A model generated the notes under the pieces. That model was not told the DNA's origin and searched no databases. It was given only the letters and a program-made list of their open reading frames with translations. A program made the translations under genes and the position numbers. Positions 7,595 to 30,470 of a stretch of DNA of 64,000 bases are shown in pieces (the stretch's first letter is position 1; each line of letters begins with the position of its first letter). Origin of the DNA: Candidatus Gottesmanbacteria bacterium RIFCSPLOWO2_01_FULL_43_11b (GTDB lineage Bacteria; Patescibacteriota; Microgenomatia; UBA10105; UBA927); assembly GCA_001780985.1 (NCBI GenBank), contig MFJV01000001.1:158980-222979 (forward strand), written 5' to 3'.

Positions 7595-7910
7595 TCATTG
7601 CATCATCTTTATCGGGAACAATCAAGATGCACTCGCCATCTTCGTCCGGTACACCCAGTGTCAGGCACTCCGAAAGAAACGGTCCGATTTGGCGTGGTGG
7701 GAAATTTACGACGCCCAATACTTTTTTCCCAACTAATTCATCTTTTTTATAATGTTTGACTATTTGGACGCTCGATCGTTTCTGCCCAATCTCCGGGCCA
7801 AAATCAATCGTGAGCTTATACGCAGGCTTACGCGCCTCTGGAAAATCTTCGACTGCAATAATTTTTCCTACCCGAATATCTAATTTTGCAAAATCATCAT
7901 ATGTTGCCAT
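7575..7910 (-). CDS. csaA: tRNA-binding domain protein (CsaA / EMAP-II-like)
   Basis: 111 aa. MATYDDFAKLDIRVGKIIAVEDFPEARKPAYKLTIDFG is a tRNA-binding OB fold. Confidence 0.75.
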   Translation of the reverse strand: MATYDDFAKLDIRVGKIIAVEDFPEARKPAYKLTIDFGPEIGQKRSSVQIVKHYKKDELVGKKVLGVVNFPPRQIGPFLSECLTLGVPDEDGECILIVPDKDDAMIGGKLY

Positions 7911-17532: not shown

Positions 17533-17611
17533 GTAAAACTTGACAATATTCTAGCATATCTTTAGTATGAAGAGGTTAGGTTCTTTAAAAGAGGGCGGAA
17601 ATTGGAAAATT

Positions 17612-17770
17612 TAAAGCGTGTGGACCAGCCCCTCGCGAGGAGCTGGTATACGAGGAAGGGGAAAATCGAATAGCCCGCCAGTCGGCGGATAAATCTGCGG
17701 ATACCCCTTGGTAGCGCTCTCTACCACAACAATAGACAGAAATGACTATTGAGGAGCCCGTCTCTCTTTC
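17612..17770 (+). ncRNA. glmS ribozyme (GlcN6P-responsive self-cleaving riboswitch), 5' leader of glmS
   Basis: AGCGUGUGGACCAGC...GCUGG is a P1 hairpin. ACGAGGAAGG...AUCGAAUAGCCCGCCAGUCGGCGGAU matches the conserved core GACGAGGA...AUCGAAUU..CGGCGGAUGCC of the B. subtilis glmS ribozyme. It lies directly upstream of glmS. Confidence 0.55.
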
Positions 17771-17778
17771 TAAACTTC

Positions 17779-19551
17779 ATGTGTGGAATATTTGGCTACG
17801 TTGGTCCTAGCCCTCATGGTGCAAAGATAGTTCTTGAAGGTCTCAAACGACTTGAATATCGCGGTTACGATAGTTGGGGAGTTGCTGTTGTACCTGCTTC
17901 AAAGGGTAAAATTGTCGTAAAGAAAAAAGCCGGAAGAATAGGCAAAGCTAGTGTTTCTGATATGCCAAAAGGGTCTGTTGCGTTCGGGCATACCCGCTGG
18001 GCAACCCATGGAGGAGTTACCGATGTTAATGCACACCCTCACCTTGACTGCACAGGAAATCTTGCTGTCATTCACAATGGTATTTTTGAAAACTATGAGA
18101 GTATAAAGCAGGATCTTATTAAAAAAGGGCACCGTTTTATCTCCCAAACAGATACCGAAGTTATCGCCCACCTCATTGAAGAATATGCAAAGACCATGAT
18201 GTTAAGTAAGGCAGTGCAACGGGCGTATAACGAAATGGAAGGTCTTAACGCATTCATAGTTATCCAGACAAAAGAACACCTCCTCCTTGGGGTAAGAAAT
18301 GGGTCACCCTTAGTCGTCGGATTCGGAGATCCGGAAAATTATTTGGCAAGTGATGCTGCAGCGCTCATTCCCCATACCCGGCAGGTTCATTTTCTTGAAG
18401 ATGATCAAATGGTAATTGTTGGAACTGATCAGGTAAACATATTTAACGCAAGAACCGGTGAACGCATTCGTCCGCTTAAACAGAAACTTACCTGGTCAGC
18501 AGAGCAGGCAGAAAAAGGAAAATTCCCTTATTTCATGCTGAAAGAAATTTATGAACAGCCCGGGCTTATTTCAGAAATTGCCGGAGAATCAACGATCCAA
18601 GCCAAAAAAATTGCGGAGGTTCTTAAAAACGCACATGGCGCCTATATCGTTGGCTGCGGAACTGCCGGATATGCTGCTCTTGCTGCTCAATATCTCTTTT
18701 CAGCCATATCAAACAGACACGTTAACTCTGTTATTGGCAGCGAATTTGGCTACCTCCAAAATTTTCTCGTGAAAAGAAGTGCCGTACTTGCCCTTTCACA
18801 ATCCGGCGAAACCATGGATATTCTTGAGGGAGTCAAGAAAGCCAAAGACAAAGGTGCAAAAATTGTTTCTTTGGTTAATGTCGTCGGATCCTCGCTTTGG
18901 CGGTTATCAGATGTAAGACTCCCAATTGGTGTAGGGCCGGAGAAAGGGGTCGCATCTACCAAAGCATTCATCGGGAAACTTACCCATCTCATACTTCTCT
19001 CTTACGCAATGATAGGCAAAATTACCAAGGGTCAGCGGATACTCACGCGGGCTGCAAAAGCAGCAACCGAGGTTCTCAAAGAGCAGCGGGTGAGTAAAAT
19101 AATGAAACTTGCAAAAAAACTCAAAAATACGGAACATATTTTTGTTATCGGGAGAGGGCTTTCATATCCTGCGGCGCTTGAAACAGCGCTAAAAATTAAG
19201 GAAATTTCCTATATCCATGCCGAGGGCTTGGCCGCAGGGGAACTCAAACACGGCCCACTTGCGCTTGTGACGAAAGGCATTCCCTGCATCGTATTTGCAC
19301 CCAACGATGAAACACAGGGAGCAAATCTTGCGGGAGCCATGGAAATGAAAGCACGAGGTGCGTATATTATCGGGATCTCACCCAAAAAGCATGAGGTTTT
19401 TGATTATTATCTGCCGGTTAAAGACGTGGGAGAGGCAACAATTATTCCCAATGTCATCGTTGCCCAGCTTCTGGCGTACTATTTAGCAATAGAGCGCGGC
19501 TTCGACCCCGATATGCCGAGGAATCTAGCAAAAAGTGTAACAGTAAAATGA
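17779..19551 (+). CDS. glmS: glutamine--fructose-6-phosphate aminotransferase
   Basis: Starts MCGIFGYVG (N-terminal Cys nucleophile). Two SIS domains. Ends ...KSVTVK. Confidence 0.9.
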   Translation: MCGIFGYVGPSPHGAKIVLEGLKRLEYRGYDSWGVAVVPASKGKIVVKKKAGRIGKASVSDMPKGSVAFGHTRWATHGGVTDVNAHPHLDCTGNLAVIHNGIFENYESIKQDLIKKGHRFISQTDTEVIAHLIEEYAKTMMLSKAVQRAYNEMEGLNAFIVIQTKEHLLLGVRNGSPLVVGFGDPENYLASDAAALIPHTRQVHFLEDDQMVIVGTDQVNIFNARTGERIRPLKQKLTWSAEQAEKGKFPYFMLKEIYEQPGLISEIAGESTIQAKKIAEVLKNAHGAYIVGCGTAGYAALAAQYLFSAISNRHVNSVIGSEFGYLQNFLVKRSAVLALSQSGETMDILEGVKKAKDKGAKIVSLVNVVGSSLWRLSDVRLPIGVGPEKGVASTKAFIGKLTHLILLSYAMIGKITKGQRILTRAAKAATEVLKEQRVSKIMKLAKKLKNTEHIFVIGRGLSYPAALETALKIKEISYIHAEGLAAGELKHGPLALVTKGIPCIVFAPNDETQGANLAGAMEMKARGAYIIGISPKKHEVFDYYLPVKDVGEATIIPNVIVAQLLAYYLAIERGFDPDMPRNLAKSVTVK

Positions 19552-26894: not shown

Positions 26895-27053
26895 AAATCG
26901 GTCGGGGCGCCGAATTGGTAGCGGATTGCGATCCACGCCACCCCCGCAATAAGAGCAATGAGCAGGATTACCAAAAGTGTGAGAGGAAATTTCATCTACT
27001 CGTACAATAGCGGGAAGTAATGACACGTGCAGTTCGATGGAGCACAAAGTGTG

Positions 27054-27252
27054 TGGGTGATCCAGGGATCGAACCTGGGACCTCGTTCTTATATCACCCG
27101 AGTGATATTTCACGCAAAATGATAATGTGGGTGCGCATGGAATCGAACCATGTGCCTCTTTCTTATCAGGAAAGCGTTCTACCAGTGAACTACGCACCCT
27201 TCTTCATTTTGCGTGAACGCAGGAACGCGCTCTACCACTGAGCCAATCACCC
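27054..27252 (-). tRNA. interrupted tRNA-Ile(GAU)-like gene. Exons about 27220-27252 and 27054-27092. The 127-nt insert contains an intact tRNA-Ile.
   Basis: Exon 1: GGGTGATTGGCTCAGTGGTAGAGCGCGTTCCTG. Exon 2: ATAAGAACGAGGTCCCAGGTTCGATCCCTGGATCACCCA. Together they give a perfect cloverleaf (7/7 acceptor, canonical D- and T-arms, loop CUGAUAA). Confidence 0.5.
27128..27199 (-). tRNA. tRNA-Ile (anticodon GAU)
   Basis: GGGTGCGTAGTTCACTGGTAGAACGCTTTCCTGATAAGAAAGAGGCACATGGTTCGATTCCATGCGCACCCA. Confidence 0.9.
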
Positions 27253-27267
27253 TTTAAAACAAATTTG

Positions 27268-27339
27268 AGGTGCGGAGGGGAATCGAACCCCTGTGTTGCG
27301 GTTTTGCAGACCGCCGCGTTACCTCTTCGCCACCGCACC
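27268..27339 (-). tRNA. tRNA-Ala (anticodon UGC)
   Basis: GGTGCGGTGGCGAAGAGGTAACGCGGCGGTCTGCAAAACCGCAACACAGGGGTTCGATTCCCCTCCGCACC. Anticodon loop CTGCAAA. Confidence 0.9.
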
Positions 27340-27363
27340 AATATGACCAATTGTACCAGATAC

Positions 27364-27386
27364 AAAAAATCCCCTCAACGAGGGGT
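27364..27386 (-). terminator. rho-independent terminator
   Basis: Minus strand: ACCCCTCGTTGAGGGG hairpin followed by TTTTTT. Lies between ORF 27391-27702 and tRNA-Ala. Confidence 0.5.
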
Positions 27387-27702: not shown

Positions 27703-27966
27703 AGAGGTGTTAGTGTAGCAGGATTTCTTTTCTTTGACAATCGAATGGTGACAGGAAGAAATTGAGAGTTGTCACTCAACCATCTTTTATACACTAAAAG
27801 ACGATTTGCTCGAGAGTGACTTTGTCCCGCTCTCAGCGGGACGGATAATCAATCTCATCTTGAATTCCTCGCTCCGATTAGATCGGAGTGTAAATTCTCA
27901 ATGACACTGATTTTATAAATAGAAAGGAGGTGATCCATCCCCAGCTTCGGCTAGGGATACCTTGTT

Positions 27967-28663
27967 CATGTTTATTCCCGGTTTTCACCGGGGCATGGAC
28001 TATATCTTCATCCGCAAAAATTGACGTTTTTCTGGATGAACCGAACCAATTATTTTTGCAAAATCGTTGTAAGACCTTGCCGAAATATAAAATCTCCAAT
28101 AATTCGGATCAACCGTTTTACTAGGATTATGAATTACTCCACAATGAATACTTAATTCTTCTAAATAGTGTTTTACTTGTAAAAGATCTTGCTTGTCCTT
28201 TTGACAAAAATACAAGTAATACCTCACCGAAGAATTTTTAGCAATACCACCTTCTGCATCGAAATAACCTCGGATATATTCGATTTTGTCGTTCTTAGAA
28301 CGTATTTCAATATCTCGTAAAATCTTTTTCGGAAATTCTACTATCCAAAGATTACGAGACTTTCCTTCTTTATATATCCAAGCTCCAACATGTAATTTAC
28401 GAATTCCTATTTTTAGAAACTGCGCAAATTCTCTACTGTTAGTTGCTATTCGATAGGTAGATTGCCGACTGGTACCATCGTGAGCCATTCCCAATAAATA
28501 TGGTTTCGTCATATGCGGCGCCAACGTGTAGTCTCTACGGAGTCCCCGATATAATCAGGGTTCCCTCGGTATTCCCATATGTTGATTATAAACCAAGCAT
28601 GAAGGGTTCACCGATACAGTTGGATTTTCCCATACCCTTACGGATATGGGTCGCAACAAACTT
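27967..28663 (-). mobile_element. group-I-like intron in 16S rRNA between AAGTCGT and AACAAGG (about E. coli position 1498/1499)
   Basis: The conserved 16S sequence CCTTGTT|ACGACTT is split by 697 nt. The 5' exon ends in U and the intron ends in G (omega-G). It contains a LAGLIDADG ORF. Confidence 0.6.
28000..28524 (-). CDS. intron-encoded LAGLIDADG homing endonuclease
   Basis: 174 aa. LAGLIDADG-type motif YIRGYFDAEGGIA. Basic, inside the 16S intron. Confidence 0.65.
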   Translation of the reverse strand: MAPHMTKPYLLGMAHDGTSRQSTYRIATNSREFAQFLKIGIRKLHVGAWIYKEGKSRNLWIVEFPKKILRDIEIRSKNDKIEYIRGYFDAEGGIAKNSSVRYYLYFCQKDKQDLLQVKHYLEELSIHCGVIHNPSKTVDPNYWRFYISARSYNDFAKIIGSVHPEKRQFLRMKI

Positions 28664-29056
28664 ACGACTTAGTCCCCATCGCTGAGTTCGGCTTCGACCG
28701 TAAAAACGGCCTTCAGCCGCCCCCAACTTTGTTGGCTTGACGGGCGGTGTGTACAAGACCCGAGAACGTATTCACCGCAGCCTTCTGATCTGCGATTACT
28801 ACCGATTCCGACTTCATGAGGGCGGGTTGCAGCCCTCAATCTGAACTGAGGCGAAATTTCAGGGATTTGCTTGCCATTACTAGTTTGCATCCCATTGTTT
28901 TTCGCCATTGTAGGGTGTGTGTTACCCAGGGTATAAGCGCCGTGCTGACTTGACGTCGTCCGTTCCTTCCTCCCCGATACATATCGGGGCAGTCTCCGAT
29001 GACACTTATAACATCGGATACGGGTTGCGCTCGTTCTCCTACTTAAAGGAACACCC

Positions 29057-29087
<31 letters not shown>

Positions 29088-29202
29088 GCTGTGATACCAT
29101 CCTTGCGGATAGCCTACTATTTCTAGCGGGTTAAAACGGTACCATGTCAAACCCTGGTAAGGTTTTTCGCTTTGTCTCGAATTGAACCACACGCTCCACC
29201 GG

Positions 29203-29234
<32 letters not shown>

Positions 29235-30286
29235 TAATCTTGCGATCGTACTCCCCAGGCGGTCTGCTTAACGCGTTAGCTTACGTCAGTCCCCCTTGCG
29301 GCGGACCAACTAGCAGACATGCGTTTAGGGCTAGGACTACGCAGGTCTCTAATCTGCTTCGCTCCCCTAGCTTTCGTGTCTCAGCGTTAGGTGTGGGCCA
29401 GAAAGGTGCCTTCGCCTTTGGTGTTCCTCATGATATCAACGCATTTCACTGCTTCACCATGAGTTCCCCTTTCCTCTCCCATCCTCAAAGACTCCCCATC
29501 TCGAACCCAACGCCGAGGTTAAGCCTCGGGCTTTCAGGTTCGATGCGGAAATCCGCCTACACGACACTTTACGCCCAGTGAATCCGGATAACGCTTGCAC
29601 CCTACGTATTACCGCGACTGCTGGCCCGCCACAATTTTTTGTAGCGAACTTTGGACTATATCATCACCCCACAGATTGGGGGTCTCGCGTGTAGTCTCTG
29701 AGGACTCTCCCCGCCATCCTTTCATTATAAATGAAGGCGGAGGTTGCCTGCTGATTGTCTTGATACATGCTTGCTTTCGCAAAACTATTTCGCGGACATA
29801 TCAAGGTGTTCCAGCATATAGCGAGATTTTCTTTTACCGTATTACTACAGTAACTACGCACCATCCGATTACATCGAATCACGTAGTTTGTAGGTGCTTA
29901 TTCGCCAAACCTCGATGATCTGGCAAAAGAGGTTTACATACCGAAATACTTCATCCCTCACGCGGCGTCGCTCGGTCAGGCTTTCGCCCATTGCCGAATA
30001 TTCCTAGTTGCTGCCATCCGTAGATGTATAGCCCGTGTCTCAGTGCTATTGTGGGGGGTCGCGCTCTCACGCCCCCTACCCGTCATCGCCTTGGTAGGCC
30101 ATTACCCCACCAACAAGCTGATAGGAGCAAGGCCGCTCTTCCTCCGTGCCGTTACGCACTTTGATCTTACGACCTCATGGAATATTACCCCGTCTTTCGA
30201 CGAGCTATGTTCCAGAAAAAGGTACGTTCCTTGCTTATACTCACCCGTCCGCCACTAATCTTTCGACCGTTCAACTTGCATGCCTA

Positions 30287-30329
<43 letters not shown>

Positions 30330-30470
30330 AAAAAAAATTAACGTCCCGGATATCATGATTCGCTTACGCTCATCACCATCCGGGTCCGGCTGATGTCGCA
30401 ACGCGACATAATAGCCGGATTCCTATCACCATTCGTTTGTCAAATGTTAATGTGCGACTCTCAATGAGCG

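What the first reader, a model, noticed from the sequence alone, without database searches (positions are those of the whole stretch)
27054..27252. An intact tRNA-Ile(GAU) nested in the anticodon loop of a second, split tRNA-Ile-like gene, bounded by a 14-bp inverted repeat
On the minus strand, 27252-27220 and 27092-27054 are the two halves of a cloverleaf tRNA. They give a 7/7-bp acceptor stem (GGGTGAT/ATCACCC), the canonical D-arm GCTCAGTGGTAGAGC, an anticodon stem CGTTC/GAACG, the T-arm CCAGGTTCGATCCCTGG, discriminator A, and the anticodon loop CUG|AUAA.

The halves are separated by 127 nt. That insert carries a complete, canonical tRNA-Ile(GAU) at 27128-27199, about 80% identical to the outer exons. 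The insert starts and ends with a perfect 14-bp inverted repeat (TTCACGCAAAATGA at 27204-27217; its complement at 27109-27122). It also has a 7-bp hairpin, ATATCAC-tcgg-GTGATAT, at 27091-27108.

Bacteria are not known to splice tRNA introns of this kind: it is far too small for a group I intron and has no BHB motif. Three readings are possible:
(a) a MITE-like or integrative element that disrupted a tRNA-Ile gene while delivering a replacement copy;
(b) a novel processed, split or nested tRNA, where RNase P/Z excision of the inner tRNA would leave two halves held together by the 14-bp helix;
(c) a pseudogene.

The whole structure sits in the 16S-proximal tRNA-Ile/tRNA-Ala spacer context, but with no 23S rRNA downstream.
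Basis: seen in the sequence. Interest (0 to 1): 0.8.

Follow-up and report, generated by a model that had tools for sequence, protein, structure and literature searches.

The report
Replacement tRNA nested inside broken tRNA
A tRNA-Ile gene of a tiny-genome (Patescibacteria) bacterium has been split exactly in its anticodon by a 127-base hairpin-armed insert that carries a complete substitute tRNA-Ile, and the same layout recurs, sometimes in layers, in many related genomes, which points to an undescribed kind of mobile cassette that replaces tRNA genes.

Summary
On the minus strand, 27252-27220 plus 27092-27054 rejoin into a perfect tRNA-Ile(GAU). The 127 nt between them hold a second, intact tRNA-Ile(GAU) (76% identical) closed by a perfect 14-bp inverted repeat.

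It is not a one-off. In a scan not selected for nesting, 25 of 120 Microgenomates/Gottesmanbacteria loci carry tRNA-Ile fragments beside the live gene. A pattern built to find nests returned 36 metagenome contigs. Over all 153 contexts, 28 of 43 fragment ends fall at anticodon positions 33-36.

- Nests can be two or three layers deep.
- Eleven distinct outer genes are still intact; most others are decayed.
- One cassette (arms plus inner tRNA) sits in three different outer alleles.
- A related genome has an uninterrupted gene at the orthologous site.

Best reading: the outer halves are a fresh relic, the inner gene is the working copy, and the insert is a mobile, self-substituting cassette. 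Its helix-forming arms probably keep the inner tRNA foldable in the shared transcript.

Larger relatives of the cassette enclose a small GIY-YIG nuclease gene fused to the tRNA. That suggests homing, but the window has no such gene, so the enzyme is inferred. A spliced or split functional outer tRNA is not supported. I found no description in the literature.

The parts
27220..27252 (-). Outer tRNA-Ile(GAU) 5' half, positions 1-34 (GGGTGATTGGCTCAGTGGTAGAGCGCGTTCCTG). Read as a relic.
   Evidence: Joins with 27092-27054 into an ARAGORN tRNA-Ile(gat). 100% identical to positions 1-33 of the native tRNA-Ile of L010.
27200..27219 (-). Left arm of the insert (CGTTCACGCAAAATGAAGAA). Contains the left copy of the inverted repeat at 27204-27217.
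   Evidence: Homologous to the left arm of the L139 nest (..ACAAAATGAAT..).
27128..27199 (-). Inner, complete tRNA-Ile(GAU). Presumed to be the working gene.
   Evidence: ARAGORN. Rfam tRNA 67.9 bits. Identical to the un-nested tRNA-Ile of Gottesmanbacteria GW2011_GWA2_43_14 (L120).
27093..27127 (-). Right arm of the insert (CATTATCATTTTGCGTGAAATATCACTCGGGTGAT). Contains the right copy of the inverted repeat at 27109-27122 and most of a 7-bp hairpin.
27091..27108 (-). 7-bp hairpin ATATCAC-TCGG-GTGATAT that straddles the right junction.
   Evidence: Present in the minimum-free-energy fold. It has the same TC..GA hairpin style as the hairpins of the GIY-YIG cassettes in relatives.
27054..27092 (-). 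Outer tRNA-Ile(GAU) 3' half, positions 35-73. Read as a relic.
   Evidence: 100% identical to positions 34-65 of the tRNA-Ile of L097.
27267..27339 (-). tRNA-Cys(GCA), immediately upstream and probably co-transcribed with the nest.
   Evidence: Promoter-like site at 27378-27350 and no terminator before the nest. The same tRNA-Cys then tRNA-Ile order occurs in L117, L146, L033, L120.
27350..27385 (-). Terminator of the upstream ORF (27385-27371), overlapping a promoter-like site (27378-27350) that would drive tRNA-Cys and the nest.
   Evidence: Consensus scan. The motif TTTGTATCTGGTACAAT is shared with the orthologous locus L146.

Best explanation
A resident tRNA-Ile(GAU) gene was split between anticodon bases 34 and 35 by a 127-bp non-coding cassette. 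The cassette consists of two mutually complementary arms that enclose a complete tRNA-Ile(GAU) of a different allele.

The inner gene now supplies tRNA-Ile(GAU). The outer halves are a still-undecayed relic. The whole unit is transcribed from the promoter-like site upstream of tRNA-Cys. The 14-bp arm helix isolates the inner cloverleaf from its near-identical outer halves, so that RNase P and the 3'-end nucleases can release it.

The cassette belongs to a family that moves as a unit between tRNA-Ile genes of Microgenomates/Gottesmanbacteria. Repeated invasions leave layered relics on both sides of the live gene. Recombination between the repeated halves can later erase one or both relics, with the net effect that the tRNA allele has been replaced.

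The most likely way in is homing: a break in the target's anticodon region is repaired from a nested donor, with the two tRNA halves serving as homology arms. Candidate nucleases are the small GIY-YIG proteins found inside larger cassettes of the same architecture.

What is shown: the anatomy; the recurrence; the site specificity; the layering; the decay series; cassette sharing between different outer alleles; one filled-versus-empty site pair; and the GIY-YIG-to-tRNA fusion in relatives.

What is inferred: co-transcription; the folding role of the arms; homing; and the identity of the nuclease.
For: Anatomy and significance:
- (see the observation check).

Recurrence:
- A genome scan keyed only on the intact anticodon arm gave 120 loci, nearly all Patescibacteria.
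- 25 of them carry tRNA-Ile fragments beside the live gene, and 9-10 of those have anticodon breaks.
- A nest-shaped pattern found 36 metagenome contigs and no viral contigs.
- Over 153 distinct contexts, 24 have fragments on both sides, 19 only on the 5' side and 14 only on the 3' side.
- 5' fragments end at positions 33-36 in 28 of 43 cases. 3' fragments start at 34-36 in 28 of 43 cases.

Layering:
- L092 has two successive 3' halves. L131 has three levels. L133 and L117 also show several layers.

Decay series:
- ARAGORN still accepts the rejoined outer gene in 11 distinct nests. The rest carry mismatched acceptor stems, deletions or further inserts.

The cassette moves as a unit:
- The same arms plus the same inner allele (GGGCTGC..TTCAATTCC) sit in outer alleles GGGTGAC (L031), GGGTCGC (L146) and GGGTCAG (L152). 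Each of these outer alleles has its own compensated acceptor stem.
- Outer-inner pairs are no more alike than random allele pairs (0.84 against 0.81).

Filled versus empty site:
- L139 carries a nest whose arms are homologous to the window's.
- L110 has the same flanking genes (71-76% identity) but a plain tRNA-Ile followed by tRNA-Ala.

Orthologous locus:
- L146 shares the 16S end and intron at 81% identity and the same promoter motif. It carries a nest of a different arm class.

The arms:
- Inverted repeats of 8-14 bp next to the tRNA occur in nests only. Plain tRNA-Ile flanks give 3-4 nt, the shuffled level.
- The arm sequences differ between nests but stay complementary.
- In silico, the native arms keep the inner cloverleaf in 7 of 8 nests. 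Shuffled arms do so in only 13-67% of trials, 31 of 60 for the window.

Nuclease link:
- L117 has the same architecture with a GIY-YIG gene inside it. Its order is: 5' relic, hairpins, GIY-YIG ORF, complete tRNA-Ile, inverted copies of the hairpins, 3' relics. The outermost relic matches the 5' relic.
- Pfam GIY-YIG matches have E-values of 1e-14 to 1e-17.
- Ten of 13 GIY-YIG ORFs in the loci abut the 5' end of a tRNA.
- All five homologs at 74% identity or more that I looked up are fused to tRNA-Ile. Four of the five are preceded by a 12-nt 5' relic and the hairpin pair; L160 follows tRNA-Cys directly and has the hairpins only downstream.
- The window's repeat core, TCACGC..GCGTGA, equals the stem of one of those hairpins.
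- GIY-YIG is the most recurrent Pfam family within 2.5 kb of 31 nests. No transposase or integrase appears among the 25 most recurrent families, which are all that the tool lists.
Against: - No GIY-YIG gene, nor any other nuclease gene inside the insert, exists in the window (tblastn E<10). The only homing endonuclease nearby is the LAGLIDADG gene in the 16S intron.
- The GIY-YIG cassettes I could read enter mainly at positions 12/13 and 26/27, not at 34-36. They usually restore the gene with a 12-nt repeat rather than a whole tRNA. Their link to the anticodon nests therefore rests on architecture and shared hairpin style, not on demonstration.
- The inner tRNA carries the same anticodon arm as the target. 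A nuclease that recognises that arm alone would also cut the cassette.
- Three arm classes show a 2-nt AT redundancy at the junctions. That would also fit a transposase making a 2-bp stagger.
- No second copy of the window's arms occurs in the 64 kb or in the metagenome and viral collections.
- The window's inner allele is the one typical of Gottesmanbacteria (L120), while the outer allele is typical of Levybacteria-like genomes. Which one was 'native' is therefore unclear.
- There are no expression data.
Confidence: 0.6

Rival explanations
1. The cassette is a non-autonomous transposon. It could be MITE-like with a 2-bp stagger, or an IS200/IS605-like element that moves as single-stranded DNA and recognises hairpins. 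A transposase encoded elsewhere would move it into hairpin loops of tRNA genes; no homing would be involved.
For: - Arm classes 1, 3 and 4 (class 4 includes L139, the window's closest relative) show an AT..AT redundancy at the two junctions.
- Class-1 left arms carry a conserved imperfect hairpin, ATGAC-stem-GACAT, with a covarying upper stem. This resembles the subterminal hairpins recognised by Y1 transposases.
- 'Empty' hairpin inserts without a tRNA exist in D-loops, in T-loops and at 26/27.
- Break points fall in the loops of the cloverleaf.
Against: - No transposase family appears among the 25 most recurrent Pfam families in 126 ORFs around 31 nests.
- The window itself has no duplication at the junctions (CCTG|CG .. 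GAT|AT) and no other copy of its arms in 64 kb.
- The complementary stretches are not terminal, and the two ends do not carry similar hairpins.
Confidence: 0.2
2. No dedicated enzyme is involved. Nests spread by DNA uptake and ordinary homologous recombination, with the conserved tRNA halves acting as portable homology arms. They persist because the insert is neutral, since the inner tRNA substitutes for the outer one.
For: - The same cassette occurs in different outer alleles.
- Outer-inner pairs look like random allele pairs.
- Relics on only one side (33 of 57 fragment-bearing contexts) are what recombination between the repeated halves would leave.
- tRNA halves of 33-39 nt are up to 100% identical between distant genomes.
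Against: - This does not explain how the first nest arose, nor why breaks cluster at 33-36.
- Homology arms of about 35 bp are very short for RecA-dependent exchange (general knowledge).
- A neutral insert without drive would not be expected to produce repeated layers at one locus.
Confidence: 0.12
3. The outer tRNA is functional. RNase P and RNase Z release the inner tRNA. The outer halves, held together by the 14-bp helix, are then trimmed and ligated, or work as a two-piece tRNA. This would be a bacterial counterpart of the archaeal split or intron-containing tRNAs.
For: - The window's outer halves are flawless.
- 11 nests keep an intact outer gene.
- Arm helices of 8-14 bp covary and resemble the helix that joins the split-tRNA halves of Nanoarchaeum (my own knowledge).
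- In class-2 arms the 3' end of the insert pairs with exon bases CCTG.
Against: - Most outer genes are decayed.
- Every nest already contains a complete tRNA with the same anticodon.
- In the predicted fold the 3' junction lies inside a 7-bp hairpin stem, not in a bulge, and there is no 3-4-3 bulge-helix-bulge.
- No group I core or any Rfam ribozyme is found.
- RNase P and RNase Z cuts would leave the arms attached and the anticodon loop open.
- No splicing endonuclease is known in Bacteria (my own knowledge; the only paper holding both 'bulge-helix-bulge' and 'Patescibacteria' is the group I intron paper).
Confidence: 0.04
4. A one-off local rearrangement or an assembly chimera produced a meaningless pseudogene.
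For: The window's exact arms were found nowhere else.
Against: - The same architecture occurs in dozens of independent assemblies from different studies. These include identical nests in several metagenomes (L123=L148=L153=L155; L135=L140=L144, L141 nearly identical; L136=L149) and contigs of 0.27-0.77 Mb.
- Break points are site-specific.
Confidence: 0.02

Closest known systems
Free-standing homing-endonuclease genes that bring their own copy of the gene segment they displace. Examples: the GIY-YIG element in Allomyces mitochondrial atp6, which leaves the old C-terminus as a pseudogene, and phage T4 SegB in the tRNA gene cluster. This comparison rests on my own knowledge; the T4 mobile-element review PMC2988022 and the SegB paper PMC13096335 appeared but were not read.
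   Same: An insertion into an essential gene is made harmless by an element-borne substitute. The displaced part is left as a relic. GIY-YIG genes are present in larger relatives. A filled and an empty site exist.
   Different: Here the substitute is a whole gene nested inside the target's anticodon. Most cassettes, including the window's, carry no endonuclease gene. The arms form a helix around the cargo. Invasions are stacked in layers.
Group I introns in bacterial tRNA anticodon loops, including those at position 35/36 of tRNA-Asn and tRNA-Asp in Patescibacteria (PMC13011429).
   Same: Same phylum, same loop, almost the same position (34/35 to 36/37). The host genome is also rich in group I introns; the window's 16S gene has two.
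   Different: There is no ribozyme core and the insert is only 127 nt. Harm is avoided by substitution rather than by splicing. tRNA-Ile(GAU) is not among the intron hosts that the paper describes.
Archaeal disrupted tRNA genes: the split tRNAs of Nanoarchaeum and the multi-intron and permuted tRNAs of Thermoproteales and others (reviews PMC4390854, PMC4090602 and PMC4033280 were listed; the details are from my own knowledge).
   Same: tRNA halves are separated in the DNA. A helix of 12-14 bp lies next to the break. Extra inserts occur in D- and T-loops of the same genes.
   Different: No bulge-helix-bulge motif and no known endonuclease. Outer genes decay. The 'intron' contains a complete tRNA with the same anticodon.
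Integrative elements in tRNA genes, which leave partial duplications of the tRNA gene (PMC9897764).
   Same: tRNA gene fragments lie beside an intact gene, and the target is restored by element-borne sequence.
   Different: The fragment is not a direct repeat of the 3' part flanking a kilobase-scale element. No integrase is present. Here a 5' relic and a 3' relic flank a 127-bp insert.
Small palindromic or hairpin mobile elements such as MITEs, REP/REPIN and Rickettsia palindromic elements (my own knowledge).
   Same: Short and non-coding, hairpin-forming, and able to sit inside RNA genes.
   Different: This one carries a functional tRNA as cargo. It targets one position of one tRNA species. 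No multi-copy family is seen in the 64-kb window.

Membership tests
Bacterial group I intron in a tRNA gene | Conserved catalytic core (P3-P9) detectable by the Rfam model RF00028 | tested here: not met
   No RF00028 match over 27030-27270, even at E<=10. The same model does find both introns of the neighbouring 16S gene.
Bacterial group I intron in a tRNA gene | Insertion in the anticodon loop | tested here: met
   The junction lies between positions 34 and 35.
Archaeal-type BHB intron or split tRNA | Both junctions lie in 3-nt bulges separated by a 4-bp helix | tested here: not met
   In the minimum-free-energy and centroid folds the 5' junction lies in an open strand and the 3' junction lies inside the 7-bp hairpin stem. 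Class-2 relatives show bulges of 1 nt and 4 nt separated by 3 bp (my reading).
Archaeal-type BHB intron or split tRNA | A splicing endonuclease and an RNA ligase encoded by the organism | not testable with these tools
   Only 64 kb of the genome is available.
Archaeal-type BHB intron or split tRNA | Exons kept intact by selection across relatives | tested here: not met
   Only 11 distinct nests have an outer gene that ARAGORN accepts. Most of the rest are decayed.
Integrative element at a tRNA gene (tyrosine integrase) | An integrase gene and a direct repeat of the tRNA 3' part at the two ends of a large element | tested here: not met
   The insert is 127 bp with no ORF. The relics are a 5' half and a 3' half, not direct repeats. 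No integrase appears among the 25 most recurrent families near nests.
MITE | Terminal inverted repeats | tested here: inconclusive
   The 14-bp repeat is perfect, but it starts 2 nt from the left end and ends 16 nt before the right end.
MITE | Target-site duplication | tested here: not met
   There is none in the window (CCTG|CG .. GAT|AT). Relatives of arm classes 1, 3 and 4 show an AT..AT redundancy.
MITE | Many copies in the genome | tested here: not met
   No other copy of the arms in 64 kb with up to 2 mismatches. None in the metagenome or viral collections. The rest of the genome was not seen.
Homing cassette (endonuclease gene plus a substitute for the displaced gene part) | A homing endonuclease gene inside or beside the insert | tested here: not met
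   No GIY-YIG gene in the window. The feature is met in relatives L117, L013, L010, L032, L079, L152 and L157-L163.
Homing cassette (endonuclease gene plus a substitute for the displaced gene part) | The element supplies a working replacement for what it disrupts | tested here: met
   The inner tRNA-Ile(GAU) is complete and scores 67.9 bits.
Homing cassette (endonuclease gene plus a substitute for the displaced gene part) | Filled and empty alleles of the same site; the same element in different target alleles | tested here: met
   L139 against L110. L031, L146 and L152 share one cassette in three outer alleles. Both tests were made on relatives, not on the window's own species.
Homing cassette (endonuclease gene plus a substitute for the displaced gene part) | Site-specific cleavage of the empty allele by the encoded nuclease | not testable with these tools
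   This needs biochemistry.
IS200/IS605-type non-autonomous element | Similar subterminal hairpins at both ends, insertion 3' of a fixed 4-5 nt target, and a Y1 transposase in the genome | tested here: inconclusive
   The window has a hairpin at one end only. Class-1 relatives have a conserved imperfect left hairpin. No Y1 transposase appears among the 25 most recurrent families near nests.

The most novel reading that the evidence does not exclude
Patescibacteria harbour a class of selfish 'introns that do not splice'. These are hairpin-armed homing cassettes that cut into the anticodon or other loops of an essential tRNA gene. They make themselves indispensable by carrying the only working copy. 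They are driven by tiny structure-specific GIY-YIG nucleases that are translationally fused to tRNA genes. Successive invasions would continually replace tRNA-Ile, tRNA-Cys and tRNA-Ala alleles across species and leave layered relics.

A still bolder variant is that outer genes carrying only D- or T-loop inserts work as fragmented tRNAs. The evidence does not exclude this, but nothing specifically supports it.
Probability: 0.35. Interest if true: 0.85.

Novelty: new variant of a known kind. Interest (0 to 1): 0.72.

Why it matters
- If these cassettes are mobile, they are a third way for an insertion in an essential RNA gene to be tolerated. The two known ways are self-splicing (group I and II introns) and protein-mediated splicing. 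This one is substitution by a carried copy.
- It would explain why tRNA-Ile alleles are scattered across Microgenomates lineages without regard to taxonomy.
- It has a practical side for annotation. Standard tRNA finders see only the inner gene, so the relics and layers go unannotated.
- It offers a natural example of a gene-replacement drive in organisms with minimal genomes. It also provides a set of about 80-aa GIY-YIG nucleases whose targets can be read off from the relics.
- The covarying arms make a testable prediction about how nested, near-identical RNAs avoid misfolding.

Tried and rejected
- ARAGORN intron modes on the native sequence report only the inner gene.
- I searched the metagenome and viral collections for the window's own repeat pair with a 70-100 nt gap and found nothing. 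That gap would have missed a version carrying an ORF.
- Rfam searches of the window nest, a class-1 nest and eight whole loci found no ribozyme or intron family in the arms. Class-1 arms read CUGAUGA-stem-GACAUAU and look superficially like a hammerhead core. However, they have C where the invariant A14 should be, extra nucleotides, and no Rfam hit. I rejected this reading.
- I considered the TTGACA in class-1 arms as a promoter for the inner tRNA. I rejected it because only GACAT(A/G)T is conserved, and any -10 element would put the transcription start inside the tRNA.
- I asked whether the arms are simply the donor gene's native flanks. They are not: un-nested tRNA-Ile genes have no flanking complementarity, and the flanks of L120 do not match the window's arms.
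- I looked for a co-conversion signature, meaning the outer gene being more like the inner gene near the break. It is not general, although L146 and L143 look like it.
- The MutS-like neighbour gave no close relative (best hit 56% identity), so the source genome is not in the protein collection. No same-species comparison was possible.
- I searched for transposases or integrases around nests. None is recurrent.
Full report
**1.

Read on the minus strand, 27252-27054 consists of five parts:

| Part | Sequence | Length |
|---|---|---|
| Outer 5' half | GGGTGATTGGCTCAGTGGTAGAGCGCGTTCCTG | 33 nt |
| Left arm | CGTTCACGCAAAATGAAGAA | 20 nt |
| Inner tRNA-Ile(GAU) | complete gene | 72 nt |
| Right arm | CATTATCATTTTGCGTGAAATATCACTCGGGTGAT | 35 nt |
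| Outer 3' half | ATAAGAACGAGGTCCCAGGTTCGATCCCTGGATCACCCA | 39 nt |

- ARAGORN calls the joined halves a canonical tRNA-Ile(GAU) and calls the inner gene as well. On the native sequence it sees only the inner gene, even in intron mode. Rfam gives the inner gene 67.9 bits.
- Only the G34|A35 junction restores the loop CTGATAA.
- The two genes are 55/72 identical. All 17 differences leave both cloverleaves fully paired.
- The 14-bp inverted repeat is perfect and unique in the window.
- Positions 1-33 and 34-65 of the outer gene are each 100% identical to native tRNA-Ile genes of other genomes. The halves are therefore real gene halves.

**2.

- The 16S gene carries two group I introns.
  - Rfam finds one at 29631-29890.
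  - The second is about 697 nt (28661-27965), with a LAGLIDADG ORF at 28000-28524. It made Rfam place the 16S 3' end wrongly. The true end, GGATCACCTCCTTTCT, is at 27921.
- After the 16S come a 103-aa ORF with no Pfam match, a terminator, a promoter-like site, tRNA-Cys, the nest, and a MutS-like gene with its own promoter-like site.
- There is no tRNA-Ala and no 23S gene.
- The organism is a Patescibacterium close to Gottesmanbacteria.
  - Its MsrB is 81% identical to that of a Gottesmanbacteria chromosome.
  - The locus L146 shares the 16S end and intron at 81% identity and the promoter motif before tRNA-Cys.
  - The best MutS-like hit in 5.8 billion proteins is 56% identical, so no same-species genome was available.

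**3. The layout is recurrent and site-specific**

I scanned one genome per species with a pattern that matches only an intact tRNA-Ile anticodon arm of either allele type. This returned 120 loci, nearly all Patescibacteria. Both allele types are ordinary native genes there.

- Masking all tRNAs and searching for leftovers showed tRNA-Ile fragments beside the live gene in 25 of these loci. Nine or ten of them have breaks in the anticodon.
- A second scan with a nest-shaped pattern found 36 metagenome contigs and no viral contigs.
- Over all 153 distinct contexts:

| Fragments beside the live gene | Contexts |
|---|---|
| Both sides | 24 |
| 5' side only | 19 |
| 3' side only | 14 |
| None | 96 |

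- The 5' fragments end at positions 33-36 in 28 of 43 cases. The 3' fragments start at 34-36 in 28 of 43 cases. Minor clusters lie at 20-26 and at 55.
- Some nests are layered. L092 has two successive 3' halves. L131 has three levels. L133 and L117 hold several relic layers.
- tRNA-Cys and tRNA-Ala show the same kind of relics.

**4. The outer gene is a relic and the inner gene is the working copy**

- After computational excision, ARAGORN still accepts the outer gene in 11 distinct nests: window, L031, L123, L124, L133, L135/L141, L136, L139, L142, L146 and L152.
- The others show mismatched acceptor stems, deletions, or further small inserts in the D- and T-loops.
- This graded series is what neutral decay after inactivation predicts. 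It is not what a spliced gene predicts.
- Every nest already has a complete tRNA with the same anticodon.
- Nothing in the window's insert resembles a group I core or any Rfam family. The predicted fold puts the 3' junction inside a hairpin stem, not in a bulge.

**5. The insert behaves as a mobile unit**

- The same arms with the same inner allele are found in three different outer alleles (L031, L146, L152). Each outer allele has its own compensated acceptor stem.
- Outer-inner pairs are no more similar than random allele pairs, so inner genes are generally foreign to their hosts.
- L139 carries the nest whose arms are homologous to the window's. L110 has the same flanking genes at 71-76% identity and an uninterrupted tRNA-Ile followed by tRNA-Ala.
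- The window and its orthologous locus L146 both carry nests, but of different arm classes and alleles. This implies turnover at one locus.
- At least four arm classes exist.
  - Class 1: CCTG|ATGAC-hairpin-GACATAT-repeat .. repeat-(C/T)TA|TAAG.
  - Class 2: CCTGA|CCCGCC .. GGCGGGCAGG|TAAG.
  - Class 3: repeat CGTGCCGAC plus an extra hairpin in the right arm.
  - Class 4: the window and L139.
- In all classes the arms pair with each other right next to the inner tRNA. The paired sequences differ from nest to nest.
- Un-nested tRNA-Ile genes have no such complementarity.

**6. What the arms may do (inference)**

- Transcription most likely starts at the promoter-like site before tRNA-Cys and reads through the nest.
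- The outer halves are 76-100% identical to the inner gene and could mispair with it.
- In folding simulations the native arms preserve the inner cloverleaf in 7 of 8 nests. Shuffled arms do so in 13-67% of trials, 31 of 60 for the window.
- An insulating helix would explain the covariation without requiring any function for the outer gene. The arms could also be the structure that the mobilising enzyme recognises.

**7. How it gets in (inference, with leads)**

L117 shows the same architecture with a gene inside it. In order:

1. a 5' relic;
2. two hairpins;
3. an 82-aa GIY-YIG ORF;
4. a complete tRNA-Ile;
5. the same two hairpins, inverted;
6. 3' relics, the outermost of which matches the 5' relic.

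- Pfam confirms the GIY-YIG domain.
- Ten of 13 such ORFs in the loci abut the 5' end of a tRNA: Ile, Cys or Tyr.
- All five homologs at 74% identity or more that I looked up are fused to tRNA-Ile. Their stop codon is the TAG at tRNA positions 9-11.
- Four of those five are preceded by a 12-nt relic ending in TAGTT and by the hairpin pair. L160 follows tRNA-Cys directly and carries the hairpins only downstream.
- The hairpin pair alone also sits in a T-loop after ATAGTT, and inverted at 26/27.
- The core of the window's repeat, TCACGC..GCGTGA, is the stem of one of these hairpins.
- GIY-YIG is the most recurrent Pfam family near nests. No transposase or integrase appears among the 25 most recurrent families.

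This makes homing the leading model: a break in the target tRNA gene is repaired from a nested donor through the two tRNA halves. The case is not proven:

- The window has no GIY-YIG gene.
- The GIY-YIG cassettes I read enter mostly at 12/13 and 26/27.
- Three arm classes show an AT..AT junction redundancy that a transposase could also produce.

**8. Comparison with what is known**

- The closest principle is the homing-endonuclease element that brings its own copy of the gene part it displaces and leaves the old part as a pseudogene. Examples are the fungal mitochondrial atp6 element and T4 SegB in a tRNA cluster (my own knowledge; related papers were listed).
- The closest neighbours in location are the group I introns at 35/36 of tRNA-Asn and tRNA-Asp in Patescibacteria (PMC13011429). 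These splice, whereas this insert substitutes.
- Archaeal split and multi-intron tRNAs look similar on paper, but their defining bulge-helix-bulge is absent.
- Fragments left by integrases (PMC9897764) differ in geometry and scale.
- Five full-text searches returned no title or abstract describing a tRNA nested in a tRNA or a GIY-YIG-to-tRNA fusion in this phylum. The term 'nested tRNA' occurred in none of the papers listed.

**9. Verdict**

The thing is one member of a previously undescribed family.
- I rate it a new variant of a known kind: a self-complementing mobile insertion.
- Confidence by step:
  - about 0.85 that the structure is an insertion with a relic outer gene and a functional inner gene;
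  - about 0.7 that the cassette is mobile as a unit;
  - about 0.3 that GIY-YIG nucleases drive it.

Noticed in passing
window 27921-30335 (minus strand): The 16S rRNA gene carries two group I introns. One is at 29631-29890 (Rfam 57.2 bits). The second is about 697 nt (28661-27965), scores below Rfam's threshold (38.3 bits) and encodes a LAGLIDADG endonuclease (28000-28524). Because of the second intron, Rfam placed the 16S 3' end at 28616. The real end, GGATCACCTCCTTTCT, is at 27921.
   Followed up: partly
L117 4448-4203(-); L157-L163, L169-L170; L010, L032, L079, L013, L105, L069, L081: GIY-YIG ORFs of about 80 aa are fused to the 5' end of tRNA genes (Ile, Cys, Tyr). In the L117-like subfamily the stop codon is the TAG at tRNA positions 9-11. 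In most of that subfamily the ORF is preceded by a 12-nt repeat of the tRNA start plus two hairpins; L160 is the exception. This looks like a homing element that restores the gene it splits.
   Followed up: partly
L158 about 1829-1870; L117, L133, L160 (position 26/27 of relic tRNAs): A 30-nt pair of hairpins (TCTGGC-NNN-GCCAGA plus TCAGGC or TCACGC-NNN-GCCTGA or GCGTGA) occurs without any ORF. It sits in a T-loop after ATAGTT, and inverted between the D and anticodon arms. These may be miniature derivatives of the GIY-YIG element.
   Followed up: partly
L145, L131, L137, L143, L130, L121, L154 (upstream of the class-1 nests): The outer tRNA-Ile genes of many class-1 nests also carry a 28-nt D-loop insert, GGTAAGC(A/G)(A/T)AGCTTGGCCAATCAGAATT, flanked by GGTA on both sides. 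In L154 and L121 it is repeated in tandem.
   Followed up: no
L021 minus strand about 1200-1310 (coordinates on the reverse complement); L058 minus strand about 7740-7860 (same convention): A structured insert of about 100 nt lies in the D-loop of partial tRNA-Ile copies. It shares the motifs GCCTGGC and CCTCCGC and shows compensatory stem changes between the two loci. It has no Rfam match apart from a weak tRNA hit.
   Followed up: no
L171/L172 1501-1761 and flanks: A GIY-YIG ORF is enclosed by an 11-bp inverted repeat (CCCCGCACCTT / AAGGTGCGGGG). It sits just downstream of smpB, inside what looks like the tmRNA gene (a tRNA-like 3' end, GACGCGGGTTCAATTCCCGCCATCTCCACA, follows). ARAGORN finds no tmRNA there.
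   Followed up: no
L105 1950-2700; L146 (reverse complement) 1340-1690; L099; L101: tRNA-Cys shows the same phenomena as tRNA-Ile. 5' relics, GIY-YIG ORFs and 3' relics starting at position 34-36 are present. The relics are preceded by hairpins built partly from the exon's own anticodon-loop bases (TCTGCC-GCAG-GCAGA).
   Followed up: partly
L022, L101, L105, L111, L156 (T-loops of relic halves): GC-rich hairpin inserts of about 38 nt (CCTGCCCGC ... GCAGGCGGG) sit at T-loop position 55/56 of relic tRNA pieces. They resemble the class-2 nest arms but carry no tRNA.
   Followed up: no
window 17604-17761 (+) and 17749-19551 (+): A glmS ribozyme (Rfam 43.7 bits) lies directly upstream of a 600-aa ORF in the glmS position. 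This is ordinary and is noted only for completeness.
   Followed up: no
L001-L120 record titles: Many of the small-genome assemblies that carry these Patescibacteria-type tRNA-Ile genes are labelled 'uncultured Gammaproteobacteria' in their records. Examples are chromosomes of 0.81 and 1.61 Mb. The labels look wrong.
   Followed up: no
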